DNA of 59,984 bases, filler included. It is 8 parts of 8 records of this genome, joined end to end, with 100 filler letters (N's around TTAATTAATTAA, not from the genome) between each part and the next. Parts side by side here need not be neighbours in the genome. Positions count along the whole stretch, not along the records: positions 13,160 to 21,170 come from SRR31147125_2115; 7 more parts are not named here. One strand, 5' to 3'. The position numbers and the translations under genes were made by a program. Positions 13,160 through 21,170 of this stretch are shown one piece after another. Below the pieces are notes generated by a model. The model was not told where the DNA came from. It did no database searches and saw nothing but the letters and a program-made list of their open reading frames with translations. Numbering within the stretch: position 1 is the first letter of the stretch; each line of letters opens with the position of its first letter.

Positions 13160-13320
13160 CCCCCGCCTGGCAGGCGGGGAAATTATCGTGCTGTTAATTT
13201 ATTTTGTGTTTCAAGATATTATTTGAAATACAGACATTTCTCCGCCTGAGGAGTACGCAGCGACGCTGTGTGAAGTGGTGCATATTTTTATCTGTCATTA
13301 GTAGCAAAGCAAGGAATCTG
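13160..13320. repeat. REP-like palindromes at contig start
   Basis: CCCCGCCTG-G-CAGGCGGGG perfect hairpin (13161-13179); degenerate TGTCATTAGTAGCAAAGCAAGGAATCT (13293-13319). Confidence 0.5.
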
Positions 13321-13660
13321 TTACATTTTTCAGCCATCACTAACTCGGTATTCAACTGTTAATTAAAACTTTTTGTTTTCTGATATTTGTTCGTTTTAAT
13401 TTTGTTAAATTAGTAGGCGTTTGTAAATGTTTATAAACGTTTGTAAGCACTTACAAATACTTTAAACGGTTTAAATACAATAAATTAGTTTTGTTTTTGT
13501 AGAGGATTGAAAAGGTGCATATATTCACACGTTGCTTCATACAAAAAAGACCGTGCGTAATGCAAATCGACAGGAAAATTATAATAAAAGAAGTGAAATA
13601 AAAGGATGGAAAAATGGTAAGAAAGAAAAAGCCCTCGCTTCGCATTTTTTTAATTTCTCT

Positions 13661-13746
13661 GCCAACACACCAATAGCACATTTGTTTTTTCGCCAACACA
13701 CAAGCCAATGTTGAAAAAACAAAAGAGCTATTTATTACCAACGCTC
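13661..13746 (+). repeat. Conserved hairpin element, copy 1 (GCACATTTG-N35-CAAAAGAGC)
   Basis: ATAGC-ACAT-TTGTTTTTTC...GAAAAAACAA-AAGA-GCTAT with CCAACACAC/CCAACGCTC boxes; second copy at 20858-20945. Confidence 0.75.
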
Positions 13747-13756
13747 AAGTTCTACG

Positions 13757-13764
13757 TATCTTTG
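13757..13764 (+). promoter_or_regulatory. Bacteroidota housekeeping -7 promoter box upstream of hsdR
   Basis: TATCTTTG matches TAnnTTTG, 18 bp before the hsdR ATG. Confidence 0.6.
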
Positions 13765-13782
13765 AGAGTTAAATGAAAACCG

Positions 13783-16188
13783 ATGATAGATAAGAAAAGT
13801 TTATCTGAAAGAGATATATGTACTAAGTTTATCACTCCTGCAATTGAAAAGGCTGGTTGGGATAAACAAACACAGCTACTCGAAGAAGTTTCCTTTACTG
13901 ATGGAAAAATATATGTCAGAGGAAAAAATAACCGCACGAGGTGCAAGAAAACGAGCAGATTACATACTCTACTACAAACCCAATATTCCGATTGCAATTG
14001 TTGAAGCAAAAGACAATAAGCATTCTGTCAGAGCAGGAATGCAACAAGGACTTGATTATGCTGAAATATTAGATATTCCATTCGTTTTTAGTAGCAACGG
14101 AGACGGTTTCTTGTTTCACGACAAAACACAAAACTCTGGAAATATTGAAACAGAATTAGATAATAACAGTTTCCCAAGTCCGCAAGAACTCTGGGCAAAA
14201 TACAAACAATACAAAGGGATTGAAACTCCTGAAGCTGAGAAAGTAGTAGAACAGGATTACTTTTTCGATGGTAGTGGTAGAACTCCAAGATACTATCAAC
14301 AAAATGCAGTAAATAGAACACTTGAAGCCATTGCCAAAGGTCAAGACCGAATTATCTTGGTAATGGCAACGGGAACAGGAAAAACATATACTGCTTTTCA
14401 AATCATTCATAGACTTTGGAAAAGTGGAGCAAAAAGAGGATTCTTTTTCTTGCCGACCGTAACGCTTTAATTGACCAAACCCGAAGAGGCGATTTTAAAC
14501 ATTTCAAAGATAAAATGACGGTGGTAAAACACCGTATGATTGACAAGAGTTATGAAGTTTATTTGGCTTTATATCAAGGTTTGTCTGGTGCTGACGAACA
14601 AGCCAATGCCTACAAACAATTTTCGCCCGAATTCTTTGATTTAATTGTAATTGATGAGTGCCACCGAGGAAGTGCAAAAGAAGACAGTGCTTGGCGTGAA
14701 ATATTAACTTATTTCAAAAAAGCAACTCATATTGGTTTAACAGCTACGCCAAAAGAAACCAACGAAGTCTCAAATATTGAATATTTTGGAGACCCCGTTT
14801 ATACTTATTCCTTGAAACAGGGAATTGACGATGGTTTTTTAGCTCCTTACCGTGTGGTTCGTGTGAATTTGAATGTTGATGCCGAAGGTTGGCGACCAGA
14901 ACAAGGGAAAAAAGACAAGGACGGTATTGAAGTTGAAGACCGTGTTTACAATAGAAAAGATTTTGACCGCACTTTGGTTATTGATGAACGAACTCAAATA
15001 GTTGCAAAAAAGCTGAGCGAATTTATGAAAGGCTTTGACCGATTTGCAAAAACAATTGTATTCTGTTCTGATATTGACCACGCAGAAAGAATGCGGACTG
15101 CTTTATCAAATTTGAATAGTGATTTGACGGCAAAAAATCATAAATACATTATGCAGATTACAGGCGATAATGACGAGGGGAAACGAGAGTTGGATAATTT
15201 TATAAATCCCGAAGAACGCTATCCTGTAATTGCCACTACCTCAGAGCTTATGACTACTGGTGTTGATGCTCAAACGTGTAAGATAATTGTTTTGGACAGC
15301 GAGATTAAGTCAATGACCAAATTCAAACAAGTTGTTGGTAGAGGAACACGAATAAACGAAGAATTTAACAAACTATATTTTACAATACTCGATTTTAGAA
15401 ATGTAACAGATTTGTTTGCAGACCCCGAGTTCGATGGTGAACCCATTCGAGTAAAACCAGTTGCGGAAAATGAAGATTTATCTTTTGTTGTAAGCGAAGA
15501 AGAGGAGAATGAAATAAAAGCTATAGATGAGCTAACAGGTGAAGAAGTCGTTTTCGAAAAAGCCAAAATCCGTTATCCGGACGGCTCAGGTATTGAAGGC
15601 GATTGGGTAGCGAAAGAGCCTAGACAAAAGGTATATGTAAACGGTGTTGATGTTTCTGTATTGATTAGCCGTGAAATGTATTTTGACAATGATGGAAAAC
15701 CAATTACCACAAGCTTAAAAGACCATACCAAAAAGTTAATTAAAGGTCAATATGCTTCATTGGATGATTTTTTGAATAAATGGAACAGTACTGATAAAAA
15801 GGAAATAATCATAAAAGAACTGGAACAACAAGGCGTTTTGGTTGAAGCTTTACGAAATGCAGTAAACAGGCAATGCGATTTATTTGACTTAATCTGCCAC
15901 GTTGCTTTTGAACAGCCACCTCTTACAAGAAAAGAACGAGCAAATAATGTTAAAAAGCGAGATTACTTTACAAAATATGGCAACGAAGCCCGAAAGGTTT
16001 TAGAAAGCCTGCTTGATAAATATGCTGACGAAGGCGTTACTAATATTGAGAGTATGGATGTTTTAAAAGTAAAACCTTTAACCGATTTTGGTTCTCCAAT
16101 GGAAATTATAAAACAATTTGGAAGCAAAGCAAAATATTTAGAGGCAGTAAAAGAACTGGAATACGAATTATATAATACAGGGGCATAA
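13783..16188 (+). CDS. hsdR: Type I restriction enzyme R subunit (EcoAI/EcoEI-like), two apparent frameshifts (near 13925 and 14432)
   Basis: SERDICTKFITPA; ADYIL..IVEAK nuclease motif; RYYQ; MATGTGKT; DECHRG; GLTATP; GRGTR; EcoEI_R_C-like tail. One extra A (GGAAAAAATA) and one missing A (GCAAAAAGAGG) explain the breaks. Confidence 0.93.
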
Positions 16189-16191
16189 AAA

Positions 16192-16428
16192 ATGAGTTTA
16201 GATTTGATAAAACAAAACGAGCAAGATTTACTTAATAAATTATCAGAACTGGTAGAATTAAGCAATGCTAAACTTGTATCACAGGCTAATAGTACATTTT
16301 CCTTAATGTTTTGGCAAATTGGTAAACATATCAACGATTTTCTTTTGACGGATAATCGTGCTGAATATGGAAAATACATAATGTCGACACTGTCTACACA
16401 TTTAACCAAGAGATATGGCAAACAATAA
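16192..16428 (+). pseudogene. Truncated DUF1016 (YhcG) N-terminal fragment
   Basis: SQANSTFSLMFWQIGKHI...RAEYGKYIMSTLSTHLTKRYGK parallels the N-terminus of the next ORF but stops at 78 aa. Confidence 0.7.
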
Positions 16429-17428
16429 CAAAATAGAAAAATCGTTTTCGAATAGTTTTGTACAACAAGTAAAGTCCATTATTCTTAATGCTCAAAATAA
16501 TGCAGTTAGAAGTGTAAATTTCGAGCGTGTTTTAATGTATTGGAAAATTGGAGAACGGATACTTAAAGAAGAGCAAAACGGAAAAGAAAGAGCTGATTAC
16601 GGAATGTTTATAACTAAGCATTTATCCGAAGAGTTAACAGCTGAATTTGGCACAGGCTTTTCTGTTAGACAGTTAGAATTTTGTCGGCAGTTTTATAAGA
16701 TTTTTCCAATTACGAACGCACTGCGTTCGCAATTGAATTGGACACAATATCGTTTACTCATTCGCATTGATGACGAGGACAAACGAACCTACTATATTGA
16801 GGAAACCTGCAAAAACAATTGGTCTGCTCGGCAATTAGAAAGACAAATTAATAGTAAACTGTACGAACGACTGCTATTAAGTACCAACAAAAAACGAGTA
16901 CTTGCCGTAGCAAAAGGAGAAGCAACACCCGAACACCCCAAAGATATAATAAAAGACCCTATGGTTTTAGAGTTTCTTGGATTAAAACCACAAGCCGAAT
17001 ATTATGAAAAAGATTTGGAACAAGCTATAATAACCAATGTGCAAAGTTTTTTACTTGAACTGGGAAATGGATTTTCGTTTGTTGCACGACAAAAAAGATT
17101 GAATATAGAAGATGATGAATATTTTGCAGATTTAGTTTTCTACAACCGACTATTAAAGAGTTTTGTAATTATTGAAATTAAAACTCACAAAATTACACAT
17201 CAAGATATTGGGCAACTTCAAATGTATGTAAATTACTACGATAGATACGAAAAAACAGAAGAAGAAAACCCAAGCATTGGAATACTTCTTTGTACCGATA
17301 AAAACGATACTATGGTGGAATTGGTATTGCCAGCCCAAAACTCTTCAATTTTGGCAAGTAAGTACCAATTATATTTGCCGACTAAAGAACAAATGATTAA
17401 TCAAATAAAAGATATAAGACTTAAATAA
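16415..17428 (+). CDS. YhcG/DUF1016 PD-(D/E)xK nuclease family protein
   Basis: YWKIGERI..RADYG; WSARQLERQI; IKDPMVLEFL; LLELGNGFSFVARQKR; ADLVFYNRLL..IEIK; GQLQMYVNYYD. Confidence 0.92.
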   Translation: MANNNKIEKSFSNSFVQQVKSIILNAQNNAVRSVNFERVLMYWKIGERILKEEQNGKERADYGMFITKHLSEELTAEFGTGFSVRQLEFCRQFYKIFPITNALRSQLNWTQYRLLIRIDDEDKRTYYIEETCKNNWSARQLERQINSKLYERLLLSTNKKRVLAVAKGEATPEHPKDIIKDPMVLEFLGLKPQAEYYEKDLEQAIITNVQSFLLELGNGFSFVARQKRLNIEDDEYFADLVFYNRLLKSFVIIEIKTHKITHQDIGQLQMYVNYYDRYEKTEEENPSIGILLCTDKNDTMVELVLPAQNSSILASKYQLYLPTKEQMINQIKDIRLK

Positions 17429-18865
17429 ATGGCAAATTTAAAAGGGATATTAGATAGCATCCGCAAAATAATGTGGACAGACACAGGGCTGAACGGCGAT
17501 GCTCAAAGAATTGAGCAATTGGGATGGATGTTGTTTTTCAAAATCTTTTCAGATAAAGACAAAGAACTTGAAATAATGGATGACAATTATGTTAGTCCGA
17601 TACCTGCCGAACTGCATTGGGACGCATGGGCTGGTGATGATGAAGGAATTACAGGCGATGAACTACAAGACTTTGTAGAAAATAAACTGTTCAAGCAATT
17701 AAAAGATATTCAGCTTGTGCCATCGGAAGATATCAAATATAAGCGAGCCTTAATACTTCGCGAAGTGTTTGAGGGCAACAACAACTATATGAAAAGCGGA
17801 ACAAATATCCGCAAAGTGCTGAATAAACTCAACGAAATTGATTTTAATACCACCAAAGACAAACACGCTTTTGGCGAATTGTACGAAACCATTCTGAAAG
17901 AACTGCAATCGGCAGGTAAATCGGGTGAGTTTTATACTCCAAGAGCTATAACCAGTTTTATTACCGAGATGATAAACCCACAATTGGGCGAAAAAATTCT
18001 TGACCCAGCTTGTGGTACTGGTGGATATTTGACCGCAGCTATTGAGCATCTTAAAAAGCAAGCCAATAGCGTAGAAGAAAGACAAAGCATTGCAAAAAAC
18101 ATAATCGGATGGGAATACAAACCCTTGCCTTATTTGTTGGCTACAACTAACTTGATTTTACACGAAATGGAAGTGCCAAACATTACCTTTCGTGATAGTT
18201 TAGACCAACCTTTGAGCAATTACACCGAGAAAAACAGGGTAAACGCAATTTTGGCAAATCCTCCTTTTGGTGGCATTGTTGCCAATAATAACGAAAACAA
18301 TTTTCCACAGAATTTCAGGACAAAAGAAAGTGCCGACCTATTCCTAATCTTAATGATTCACTTGCTAAAACAAGGCGGACGTGCAGGAATTGTTTTGCCT
18401 GACGGTTCACTTACAGGTGATGGAGTAAAACAAAGGGTGAGACAAAAATTGTTGGAAGATTGTAATTTACATACCATTATTCGTTTACCAAATTCTGTTT
18501 TTAAACCTTATGCAACGGTAGCTACTAACCTTTTGTTTTTTACCAAAGGTGAACCAACAAAAGAAGTTTGGTACTACGAACACCAACTACCTACAGATTA
18601 CAAGTCGTATAGTATGACAAGACCTTTGCAACTAAAGGAACTTGAACCAATTAAGAAGTGGTGGAACAACAGAAAAGAAAGTGAAGTTTGTTGGAAAGTA
18701 GATTTACAAACAATTATTGACCGTAATTACGACTTAGACATAAACAATCCCAATAAAAAGGAAGAAGTAATAGAACACAATAGTTCTGAACTTATGGAAA
18801 TGTTGGATGCCTCTTTTGACAAAAGTCATAATTTATTAACGCAAATAAGAGAAGCCGTTAAATGA
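17429..18865 (+). CDS. hsdM: Type I R-M methyltransferase M subunit (m6A)
   Basis: GEFYTPR, DPACGTGG (motif I), ANPPF (motif IV); ATGA overlap with hsdS. Confidence 0.95.
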   Translation: MANLKGILDSIRKIMWTDTGLNGDAQRIEQLGWMLFFKIFSDKDKELEIMDDNYVSPIPAELHWDAWAGDDEGITGDELQDFVENKLFKQLKDIQLVPSEDIKYKRALILREVFEGNNNYMKSGTNIRKVLNKLNEIDFNTTKDKHAFGELYETILKELQSAGKSGEFYTPRAITSFITEMINPQLGEKILDPACGTGGYLTAAIEHLKKQANSVEERQSIAKNIIGWEYKPLPYLLATTNLILHEMEVPNITFRDSLDQPLSNYTEKNRVNAILANPPFGGIVANNNENNFPQNFRTKESADLFLILMIHLLKQGGRAGIVLPDGSLTGDGVKQRVRQKLLEDCNLHTIIRLPNSVFKPYATVATNLLFFTKGEPTKEVWYYEHQLPTDYKSYSMTRPLQLKELEPIKKWWNNRKESEVCWKVDLQTIIDRNYDLDINNPNKKEEVIEHNSSELMEMLDASFDKSHNLLTQIREAVK

Positions 18866-20856
18866 GTTGGGGAAAGAAGAGATTAGGCGAATTGTGTTCA
18901 ATCACAAAAGGAAAAATTGGGATTAAAAAAGCTATTCCAGGCGAATATCCTTTGGTAGTAACCAGTAAAGAAAGAAAATCACACAATGAAATGCATTTTG
19001 AAGGTGAAGCAGTTGTTATTCCTTTAGTTTCTTCAACAGGTCATGGTCATAGAAGCTTAAAAAGAATTCATCATCAAACAGGAAAATTTGCTGTTGGAAA
19101 TATTCTTTGTGCTGTTATACCAAATGATAGTAATATTTTGAGCGCAGAATACTTATATCGTTTTCTTGACTTAAATAGAGAAAAAGAACTGGTTAGCCGT
19201 ATGCGTGGTATGGCAAATGTAAGTTTGCCTATAAAAGAGATTGCAAAAATTGAAATCCCATTACCGCCTTTGGATGAACAACATAAATTTGTTGAAGAAT
19301 ACAAAGCATTGGAAACAGCAAACAATACTTTATCCTCAGAAATCACAATTCAGCTTGATTTAGTAAAACAACTCCACCAAGCCTTTTTACGAGAAGCAAT
19401 GCAGGGGAAGTTAATTGTTAATGATGAATTGTTAATGGTTAATGGGCAAAAAGAGTCTGGGGCGGATTTGTTAGACAAAATAAAAGCCGAAAAAGAGCAA
19501 TTGATTAAGGAGAAGAAAATACGGAAAGGTAAACTACAAGAAGCAGAAACACTAGAAGAATTATTGTTCGATATTCCAACACATTGGACGTGGTGTAAAC
19601 TTGATGAAATATGTAAAAACATAACAGACGGAACACACCAAACGCCTTCATATACAAAAAGTGGAAGAATGTTTTTATCCGCTCAAAATGTGAAGCCTTT
19701 TAAATTTATGCCTGACAATCACAAATTCGTATCAGAAGAAGCTTATCAATCATATATTAAAAACAGGAAAGCAGAAAAAGGCGACTTATTAATTGGACGT
19801 GTTGGTGCAGGTATCGGGGAAACAGCAGTAGTTGACCAGGATTTAGATTTTGCTATTTATGTTAGTTTGGGTCTCGTTCAGCCATTCAAAAATTATTTGT
19901 GTTCTAATTTCTTAGCATATTTGTTTAATTCTCCTTACGGATATAATTATGCAAAAGGCAATATTTCAAGTAAAGGTGGTTCGGCTGGTAACTTTAATTT
20001 GGGGCGTATTCGTTCATTTTTAGTTCCCTTGCCTCCACTTTCCGAACAAAAGCGTATTGTAGCCAAATTAGATGAGTTAATGGCACATTGTGATAGTTTG
20101 GAAGAGAGCATAAAAAACAGCCAACAACAAAATGAAATGCTTTTGGGGCAGGTTTTGAGGGAGGCTTTGGAGCCGAAAACTGAAAAAGCTATAACAAAGC
20201 AAGCAAAAGTTGTTGCGTTACCCAAGTTACAAGAATTGGAAGATAGCTATTTTGTAAAACGCAAAATGCTTGCATCTTATATCATTAATCAATCAGTAAA
20301 CGATAAACTATTTGGCGACACAAAGTTCGAAAAGTTATTACATCTCGCCGACTACCATATTCTTAAAAGGAATCTTGGTCAGGAATATAAAATAAAAGCT
20401 GCTGGACCTTATGACAATAAGTTTACCCTTACGTTTTTTAAGCAATCCATAAAAGCAGGTTGGTTCTACAAACAGCCTATGGGCAATATGAATAGAATCT
20501 TACCTGAGAACAAAACATTAAATCGCAGAAGACTTACGATTTTTTCTCAGCCACCGAGTTGGAGAAACTTAATAGCTTGATTGATGCATTCAAAAGTTTT
20601 GATTATAAAATCCCAGAGATTATTTCAACCTTATATGCCATTTGGAATAATCGTATAATTCAAAAGCAACTTATTAGTGATGAGCTATTAAAACAAGATT
20701 TTTTAGATTGGGATGAAGGCAAAGCACAATATGTTTACCCTAAAGACAGGGTAATACCAGCAATCAAATGGATGAAAGAGAATAATTTTGTACCTGACGG
20801 TTGGGGAAAGATTATTGAACGCCCTAAAAGCAAAACTAAAAGAAAAAAAGGTATAA
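18862..20856 (+). CDS. hsdS: Type I R-M specificity subunit with an extra C-terminal domain (frameshift near 20506)
   Basis: Two TRDs each followed by the conserved PLPPL.EQ helix; LREAMQGKL spacer; extension KFEKLLHL...AAGPYD continues in ORF 20559-21011 (PEIISTLYAIWN). Probable true stop near 20856. Confidence 0.85.
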
Positions 20857-20857
20857 T

Positions 20858-20945
20858 GCCACCGCACACTTGTAAGCACATTTGCAGGTCGCACAATGCC
20901 ACCGCACGACCAAAACCTGCAAAAGAGCTTCCAAGCCCCTACACA
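20858..20945 (+). repeat. Conserved hairpin element, copy 2 (GCACATTTG-N35-CAAAAGAGC)
   Basis: AAGC-ACAT-TTGCAGGT...ACCTGCAA-AAGA-GCTT with CCACCGCAC boxes; same spacing as copy 1. Confidence 0.75.
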
Positions 20946-21029
20946 CGGCTAAAGAGAAATTTTAAAAAATGCCCCACCGCACGAGTGAAAAAAATGAAAC
21001 AAAATGAATAGAATAAATAAAGTACGAAA

Positions 21030-21145
21030 GCACAACGAAGTATATAAATCATTGGGCAGTAAGTGGTTAAGTTGAAGTTTGTGCAAAAAATGAAAATTAG
21101 TAGCAAATTGAAAATGAAGTGCTTCAAAACGCCCAACGCTTCATA
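21030..21145 (+). repeat. attC-like imperfect palindrome, right arm interrupted
   Basis: GCACAAC (RYYYAAC-like), left arm GTATATAAATCATTGGGC, right arm GCCCAACGCTTCATA, which breaks off before a matching GTT core. Confidence 0.5.
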
Positions 21146-21170
21146 GTGTGCCGAGAAGCAATGATTCGGC
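21146..21170 (+). mobile_element. Probable 5' end of a group II intron
   Basis: Starts GTGTG (GUGYG consensus) with hairpin GCCGAG...TTCGGC exactly where the attC-like arm breaks; the contig ends 25 nt in. Confidence 0.45.

What the first reader, a model, noticed from the sequence alone, without database searches (positions are those of the whole stretch)
20170..20856. HsdS fused to a C-terminal domain resembling Panacea/SocA or the DarG C-terminal winged helix
Seen: after the second conserved HsdS helix (..QVLREALEP) the ORF continues for about 220 aa once one G is restored near 20506: DTKFEKLLHLADYH...YKIKAAGPYD...PEIISTLYAIWN. Known: canonical HsdS ends after this helix. The pattern KL-x-(Y/H)...GP(Y/V)...E-x-x-(A/S)T characterises DUF4065/Panacea (SocA-like) antitoxin domains and the C-terminal domain of DarG. 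Inference: the specificity subunit carries an antitoxin-like or adaptor module. It could act as a guard or sensor for anti-restriction proteins, link the R-M complex to proteolysis, or control the embedded DUF1016 nuclease.
Basis: partly seen in the sequence, partly recalled or inferred. Interest (0 to 1): 0.7.

Follow-up and report, generated by a model that had tools for sequence, protein, structure and literature searches.

The report
Restriction subunit carrying DarG-like sensor domain
The DNA-recognition subunit of this bacterial restriction enzyme carries an extra, strongly conserved tail domain that is predicted to fold like the toxin-binding half of the antitoxin DarG; the same domain recurs on many unrelated restriction enzymes and on likely gene switches beside other anti-phage systems, so it likely acts as a portable sensor that tunes defence, although what it senses is untested.

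Summary
HsdS is 665 aa with a 227-aa tail; the break near 20506 and a second one at 20842 are assembly errors (an independent contig has the missing bases; 46 of 47 relatives are one protein). The tail is a ~190-aa domain whose best structural match is the DarG C-terminal domain (Z 13.0, next 8.4); Panacea is only a weak match. No Pfam or NCBIfam model covers it, yet 1,101 clusters at 50% identity match at E<=1e-10. It is more conserved than HsdM, hangs on a flexible linker, and has moved among six type I families, HsdM, M~S fusions and a sigma-factor partner protein beside CBASS, Pycsar and ubiquitin-like operons, where it stands in place of a CapP-family protease. No toxin travels with it (DUF1016 in 9 of 67 loci, DarT in none), so an antitoxin role is not supported. 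Best reading: a portable signal-input domain whose ligand lies outside the R-M complex, likely ssDNA/DNA stress; ligand and output are inferred. Ten literature searches found no description. The scan earlier noted the protease-type sigma triad on other DNA, not this fusion.

The parts
18862..20175 (+). HsdS core (TRD1, helix, TRD2, helix), residues 1-438
   Evidence: PF01420 E 2.7e-28, two stretches; model of relative P0003 matches solved HsdS chains, E down to 6e-17
20176..20238 (+). flexible linker of about 20 aa
   Evidence: pLDDT under 60 at the matching residues 431-450 of P0003; whole-chain pTM 0.59 against 0.85 for the domain alone; rough linker length 8-54 aa in 63 relatives
20239..20834 (+). 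DarG-C-like domain (~190 aa): N-terminal winged helix plus C-terminal helical subdomain; conserved G485, K488, K491, G515, P516, D518, E586, T590, W617, K621
   Evidence: predicted on intact relative P0003
20505..20506 (+). assembly error: one G missing in the window
   Evidence: relatives continuous here
20842..20856 (+). second assembly error in an A run (two A missing); true stop at 20854-20856
17429..18865 (+). hsdM, 478 aa, ordinary length
   Evidence: PF02384 E 6e-71, PF12161
16415..17428 (+). DUF1016/YhcG PD-(D/E)XK nuclease, an inserted passenger gene
   Evidence: PF17761, PF06250; present in 9 of 67 fusion loci
16192..16428 (+). 78-aa DUF1016_N-only fragment
   Evidence: PF17761 E 2.7e-11; no gap in the X1 contig here
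13783..16188 (+). hsdR, EcoEI_R_C-bearing type, 801 aa on read-through of two assembly errors
   Evidence: PF04313, PF04851, PF08463

Best explanation
The tail is a separate, conserved domain predicted to have the DarG C-terminal fold, fused by a flexible linker to HsdS, and it likely works as a portable sensor that binds something outside the restriction complex, most likely single-stranded or damaged DNA, and would thereby tune (probably damp) restriction. Shown: the fusion, its conservation, its spread, its independence of HsdR/HsdM type and its interchange with a sigma-partner protein. Predicted: the fold and the loose tether. Inferred: that the sigma partner is an anti-sigma factor; that the domain delivers the same cue as the CapP-family protease it replaces there (CapP is activated by ssDNA); that on a type I enzyme this cue lowers restriction when the host chromosome is damaged, as restriction alleviation does for EcoKI, by sequestering the M2S core or marking the complex for a host protease.
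For: Fold: 7yk3 DarG chain is the top hit, Foldseek prob 1.0, TM 0.55/0.59; VIA Z 13.0, 165 aligned of 187, rmsd 4.0, next 8.4; the profile recovers true DarG beside DarT; PADLOC DarG E 1.6e-8 and 2.3e-12. Partner lies outside the complex: 57 loci fall into 6 HsdR families; 112 of 246 pairs with >=50% domain identity are in different families (e.g. domain 73%, HsdR 10%); Spearman domain~HsdR 0.21 against HsdR~HsdM 0.79; the domain also sits on HsdM (2 loci) and M~S fusions. Interchange: HsdS versus sigma-partner label needs 8 changes, at least 5 forced by starred branches, on a 90-row tree. Sigma class lies by defence genes in 17 of 20 metagenome loci with context (13 of 16 after dereplication) and 6 of 6 genome loci. 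Of the 15 best sigma relatives examined, 13 have a PF06114 peptidase and a short partner, 2 have the domain and no peptidase; 0 of 20 domain-type loci show the peptidase motif. CapP is a PF06114 protein activated by ssDNA (10.1101/2022.04.27.489752, passages). Domain is basic with conserved lysines (median +4/+5, DarG -3 on 2 rows; K488 is E in DarG). Panacea was proposed to be a sensor in multidomain antitoxins (PMC10440598, passages).
Against: No ligand was tested; replacing a protease in gene order does not prove the same signal. Foldseek E (4e-3) misses the tool's 0.001 line, identity is 12-15%, and Z 13 is near the tool's caution level for helical proteins. A shared fold shows no function: DarG-C is reported to bind DarT as an acidic ssDNA mimic (PMC11481870, passage), the opposite chemistry. 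The sigma assignment rests on PF04542 in 1 of 1 and 1 of 4 (below cut-off) proteins plus profile likeness to ECF-type factors. Conservation counts are partly biased because the first loci were fetched by motif patterns. The tree is a quick LG+G4 search with one long-branch warning. A basic winged helix could simply bind double-stranded DNA.
Confidence: 0.4

Rival explanations
1. SocA-like protease adaptor: the domain recruits ClpXP (or another host protease) so that HsdR, or the anti-sigma protein, is degraded; any sensing is done elsewhere.
For: SocA, a Panacea protein, is a ClpXP adaptor (PMC8832971, passage); EcoKI HsdR is degraded by ClpXP and its degron was not found (PMC4231737, abstract); the module replaced in the sigma loci is itself proteolytic; a conserved host partner would explain conservation above HsdM and independence of HsdR type.
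Against: Other PanA antitoxins did not need ClpXP or Lon (PMC8832971, passage); the domain is closer to DarG-C than to Panacea; no ClpX contact was tested.
Confidence: 0.2
2. Guard or decoy for phage proteins: the basic domain binds a phage DNA mimic (Ocr/ArdA-like) or a DarT-like enzyme, protecting the R-M enzyme or, on the sigma partner, switching on back-up defences.
For: DarG-C and Panacea are protein-binding modules (PMC11481870, PMC10440598, passages); every context seen is a defence locus; net positive charge.
Against: A receptor for phage proteins would be expected to diversify fast, whereas this domain is slower than HsdM (inference). On HsdS there is no constant effector for a guard to release.
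Confidence: 0.17
3. Accessory double-stranded DNA-binding winged helix that aids target search or represses the operon's own promoter.
For: N-terminal half matches PadR/MarR-type winged helices at Z 7-8; conserved lysines at the start of helix 2; repressor fusions to methyltransferases are known (PMC12707154, passages).
Against: No palindrome shared by more than 2, and no 10-mer by more than 3, of 18 upstream regions with close domains (crude test); does not explain why it replaces a protease or the conserved second subdomain.
Confidence: 0.15
4. Antitoxin for a neighbouring toxin such as the DUF1016 nuclease (addiction or guard pair).
For: Homology to DarG and Panacea antitoxin domains; DUF1016 lies inside this operon; many loci carry some inserted nuclease or toxin gene.
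Against: No neighbour other than HsdR/HsdM exceeds 10 of 67 loci; DUF1016 9 of 67; 20 loci have no inserted gene; no DarT hit.
Confidence: 0.05

Closest known systems
DarG C-terminal domain of DarTG2 (PDB 7YK3)
   Same: Predicted fold over 165 of 187 residues; shared K, GP, E-x-x-x-T and W-x-x-x-K positions; reciprocal profile hits.
   Different: No macrodomain, no DarT neighbour; basic rather than acidic; fused to R-M subunits or a sigma partner.
Panacea/SocA (PF13274, DUF4065)
   Same: K-L...GP motif region; weak Pfam match in 7 of 16 members; proposed sensor role in multidomain antitoxins (PMC10440598, passages).
   Different: GPYD instead of the GPV signature; about 190 aa with a second subdomain; not in a two-gene toxin-antitoxin operon.
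Type I R-M specificity subunit HsdS (PF01420)
   Same: Two TRDs and two helices; operon hsdR-hsdM-hsdS.
   Different: Extra C-terminal domain; none of the solved HsdS chains hit is longer than 475 aa; not mentioned in the passages of two reviews that I searched. PADLOC R-M profiles include the extension without naming it.
CapH+CapP and sigma-associated CapP regulators of CBASS
   Same: Sister loci have the same position (divergent, upstream of CBASS, Pycsar or ubiquitin-like operons); 24 systems with a sigma factor were noted in 10.1101/2022.04.27.489752 (passage).
   Different: In the domain-bearing version the PF06114 protease is absent and the partner's tail is replaced by the DarG-C-like domain.

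Membership tests
Type I R-M system | hsdR, hsdM, hsdS together with intact frames | tested here: met
Type I R-M system | restriction and methylation activity | not testable with these tools
   no assay; 50 of 57 relatives match both Walker A and DExH patterns, the other 7 match one (not inspected further)
DarG C-terminal domain | whole-domain fold match | tested here: met
   (predicted model, pLDDT 84)
DarG C-terminal domain | sequence homology by profile | tested here: met
   PADLOC DarG 5 of 16 members, best 1.6e-8; 2.3e-12; NCBIfam DarG only 1 of 16 at 0.026
DarG antitoxin (DarTG2) | N-terminal macrodomain and adjacent darT | tested here: not met
DarG antitoxin (DarTG2) | acidic ssDNA-mimic surface binding DarT | tested here: inconclusive
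   net charge positive; surface not mapped, binding not modelled
Panacea/SocA (PF13274) | Pfam match above threshold | tested here: not met
   window halves no hit; 7 of 16 relatives, best E 0.003
Panacea/SocA (PF13274) | GPV motif | tested here: not met
   GP conserved, followed by Y/F/H-D; motif definition from PMC8832971 passages
Panacea/SocA (PF13274) | cognate toxin gene adjacent | tested here: not met
Panacea/SocA (PF13274) | fold match to a solved Panacea structure | tested here: inconclusive
   none listed; whether one is in the library is not known
SocA-type ClpXP adaptor | binds ClpX and promotes degradation | not testable with these tools
   no assay or complex model
Anti-sigma factor (sister context) | binds the upstream sigma-like protein | not tested

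The most novel reading that the evidence does not exclude
The DarG-C/Panacea fold is a general DNA-stress sensor that bacteria plug into toxin-antitoxin pairs, anti-sigma switches of CBASS/Pycsar/ubiquitin-like operons and type I restriction enzymes; on HsdS or HsdM it gives more than a thousand sequence clusters of R-M enzymes a built-in restriction-alleviation switch, and the protease-free sigma module is a further class of defence-operon regulator.
Probability: 0.25. Interest if true: 0.85.

Novelty: new variant of a known kind. Interest (0 to 1): 0.63.

Why it matters
HsdS is taught as two recognition domains and two helices. A conserved extra domain on many unrelated type I enzymes implies an input that has not been described in what I could search. 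Because the same domain occurs without any toxin, on an enzyme with an easy readout (restriction) and on a likely sigma switch with an easy readout (transcription), the open question of what DarG-C/Panacea-type domains sense becomes directly testable. It also points to a protease-free regulator of CBASS, Pycsar and ubiquitin-like operons in Bacteroidota.

Tried and rejected
Pseudogene or separate gene: rejected. Programmed frameshift: not needed, the re-assembled contig is in frame. Sequence search of the PDB gave only chance hits. Pfam, NCBIfam and PHROGs gave no above-threshold family. ESM Atlas: nearest clusters unnamed, scores under 0.9, leads only. Viral fold library: nothing clear. Phage-borne decoy: one locus in each of two IMG/VR scans, both HsdS in R-M operons, none in annotated phages, one plasmid hit not followed. 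Operator search negative but crude. Rfam: no match on the contig. No RNA holder listed. No genome is held for the window. Complex prediction (sigma with partner) was not available, so no binding was modelled. The primary DarG-C structure paper was not held; I rely on a citing passage. Literature searches: (nine searches; subscription papers and supplements were not seen, and dataset tables of the Panacea and CapP papers could list such fusions).

Full report
Setting. The window is a string of metagenome contigs joined by N spacers; the finding lies on the contig 13160-21170. It holds hsdR, a DUF1016_N fragment, a full DUF1016/YhcG nuclease, hsdM and hsdS. The nearest relatives of the tail are from Flavobacteriaceae (78% to L002), so the host is inferred to be a Bacteroidota member. 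No genome is held.

The observation. A search with the in-frame half gave 47 proteins among 61 candidates, and 46 of 47 align to both frames as one chain. A contig of run X1 supplies one G behind 20505 and two A behind 20842 and also removes the two hsdR frameshifts; it may be a re-assembly of the source sample and each indel rests on one contig. Read-through gives HsdS 665 aa with 227 aa after the helix and HsdR 801 aa. Both halves of the tail show low pN with saturated pS and are more conserved than HsdM.

What the tail is. An AlphaFold2 model of the tail of intact relative P0003 (16-row alignment, pLDDT 84, pTM 0.85) has a winged helix followed by a helical subdomain. Its top PDB match is the DarG chain of 7YK3: Foldseek E 4e-3, prob 1.0, TM 0.55/0.59; VIA Z 13.0 over 165 of 187 residues, next hit 8.4 and limited to the winged helix. 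Sequence evidence agrees: PADLOC's DarG model hits 5 of 16 members (best 1.6e-8) and a sigma-class relative at 2.3e-12, and my 54-row profile recovers three true DarG proteins beside DarT. Panacea PF13274 is weaker (7 of 16, best E 0.003); NCBIfam DarG hits 1 of 16 at 0.026. Seven polar or turn positions (K491, G515, P516, E586, T590, W617, K621) are shared by R-M, sigma-class and the two DarG rows; K488 is lysine here and glutamate in DarG, and net charge is +4/+5 against -3. The full-length model (pLDDT 91, pTM 0.59, low confidence only at the linker) shows an ordinary HsdS core with the domain loosely attached.

Spread. 1,426 clusters at 50% identity match at E<=1e-3, 1,101 at 1e-10 (150 listed). 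All 237 stored proteins of 500 aa or more have an HsdS-like core, 8 also a methyltransferase motif, and the domain is terminal (median 5 residues after it; the core profile was built from such proteins). In an even sample, 16 of 401 Bacteroidota genomes matched (one is the seed): 6 HsdS, 2 HsdM and 2 sigma-partner strong hits; 3 distant HsdS fusions, 2 DarG and 1 short stand-alone protein as weak hits. 5 of 401 Pseudomonadota genomes matched (one is the seed), all HsdS fusions.

It does not follow the R-M subunits. In 57 genome loci with R, M and fused S (of 79 fetched), HsdR falls into six groups under 30% identity; 112 of 246 locus pairs with at least 50% domain identity are in different groups; domain identity correlates 0.21 with HsdR and 0.20 with HsdM identity, while HsdR and HsdM correlate 0.79. 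A fixed interface with HsdR or HsdM is therefore unlikely (inference). No toxin is constant: among 67 fusion loci HsdR is in 65, the next commonest neighbours in 10 and 9 (DUF1016), 20 loci have nothing inserted, and DarT queries found no hit in the ORFs of L001-L079 and L098-L158.

A second context gives the clue. Many 240-290-aa proteins carry the domain behind a short N-terminal segment with an F/L-P-x-T/S motif. They follow a ~220-aa sigma-like gene, mostly overlapping it (PF04542 above cut-off in L023, below it in 1 of 4). They lie beside CBASS in 6 of 6 genome loci and beside CBASS, Pycsar or ubiquitin-like genes in 17 of 20 metagenome loci with enough context, 13 of 16 after dereplication; one of the 17 is only a short fragment. 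On a 90-row tree (116 rows dereplicated at 80%) the HsdS/sigma label needs 8 changes, at least 5 forced by starred branches, against a shuffled mean of 22 (quick search, one long-branch warning). Of the 15 best sigma relatives examined, 13 have a PF06114 peptidase downstream of a short partner (7 of these partners match the N-terminal segment at E 5e-7 or better), and 2 have the domain and no peptidase; 0 of 20 domain-type loci with downstream sequence show the peptidase motif. So the domain stands where a CapP-family protease switch stands. I found this before the scan's note e1-2156793 on the protease triad was shown.

Mechanism. CapP is a PF06114 peptidase activated by ssDNA, and 24 CBASS systems have it beside a sigma factor (10.1101/2022.04.27.489752, passages); CapW and CapK also sense ssDNA (PMC13373217, passages). 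Panacea was proposed to be a sensor in multidomain antitoxins (PMC10440598, passages). EcoKI restriction is damped by ClpXP when it meets unmodified host sites, by an unidentified recognition route (PMC4231737, abstract and opening text). I therefore commit, at 0.4, to a portable sensor of ssDNA/DNA stress that frees the sigma factor in one context and tunes restriction in the other. The ligand, the anti-sigma role and the direction of the effect are all inferred. A SocA-like ClpXP adaptor (PMC8832971, passages) is the closest rival and could be the output arm of the same mechanism. Against my reading: DarG-C is reported to bind DarT as an acidic DNA mimic (PMC11481870, passage), a basic winged helix may bind dsDNA, and gene replacement does not prove a shared signal. 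A crude operator search was negative.

Novelty. Nine full-text searches and term look-ups in PMC3874165, PMC12707154, PMC12839542 and PMC7159879 (passages only) gave no description of HsdS or HsdM fused to a DarG-C/Panacea-like domain or of the protease-free sigma module. Subscription papers and supplements were not seen. PADLOC's R-M profiles already contain the extension unnamed. Labels such as anti-sigma, ECF-like, attC-like and Ocr/ArdA as DNA mimics are from recall or search listings. Verdict: a real, widespread, apparently undescribed variant of type I R-M, interest 0.63.

Noticed in passing
L100:6343-7726, L023:9142-10555, L084, L085 and about 30 further loci: Two-gene module, sigma-like factor plus partner with the DarG-C-like domain and no protease, beside CBASS, Pycsar and ubiquitin-like operons; a candidate new regulator of defence operons.
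   Followed up: partly
L159-L173: Sigma / ~113-aa partner with a conserved M-A-A-R tail / PF06114 peptidase triads, several divergent from CBASS or multi-ubiquitin operons.
   Followed up: partly
window 13672-13732 and 20869-20935: Related imperfect hairpins flank the R-M operon on both sides, with high-depth loose ends in run X1; resemble cassette ends (attC-like, from recall). The pattern was near only 1 of 58 related loci.
   Followed up: partly
window 16192-16428: DUF1016_N-only fragment directly before the full DUF1016 gene; also present in the X1 contig, so a real partial duplication.
   Followed up: no
L048:5881-8381: HsdS with a distant copy of the domain is followed at once by a stand-alone 221-aa close copy; a possible intermediate of domain replacement.
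   Followed up: no
L105:2878-3291 and 8 other loci: A 138-168-aa LRAT/NlpC-like gene sits first in CBASS and Pycsar operons next to the sigma module.
   Followed up: no
L072:11123-11614, L154:420-911: An unannotated, conserved 164-aa Cys/His-rich protein follows the fused hsdS in 4 genome and 5 metagenome loci.
   Followed up: no
L039, L042: PRTase-CE, small protein and reverse transcriptase (retron-like, from recall) inserted between hsdS and hsdR.
   Followed up: no
window 1-59984: The window is eight unrelated contigs (GC 29-48%) joined by spacers; the R-M contig has four indel errors, so other frameshifts in this window may be artefacts too.
   Followed up: partly
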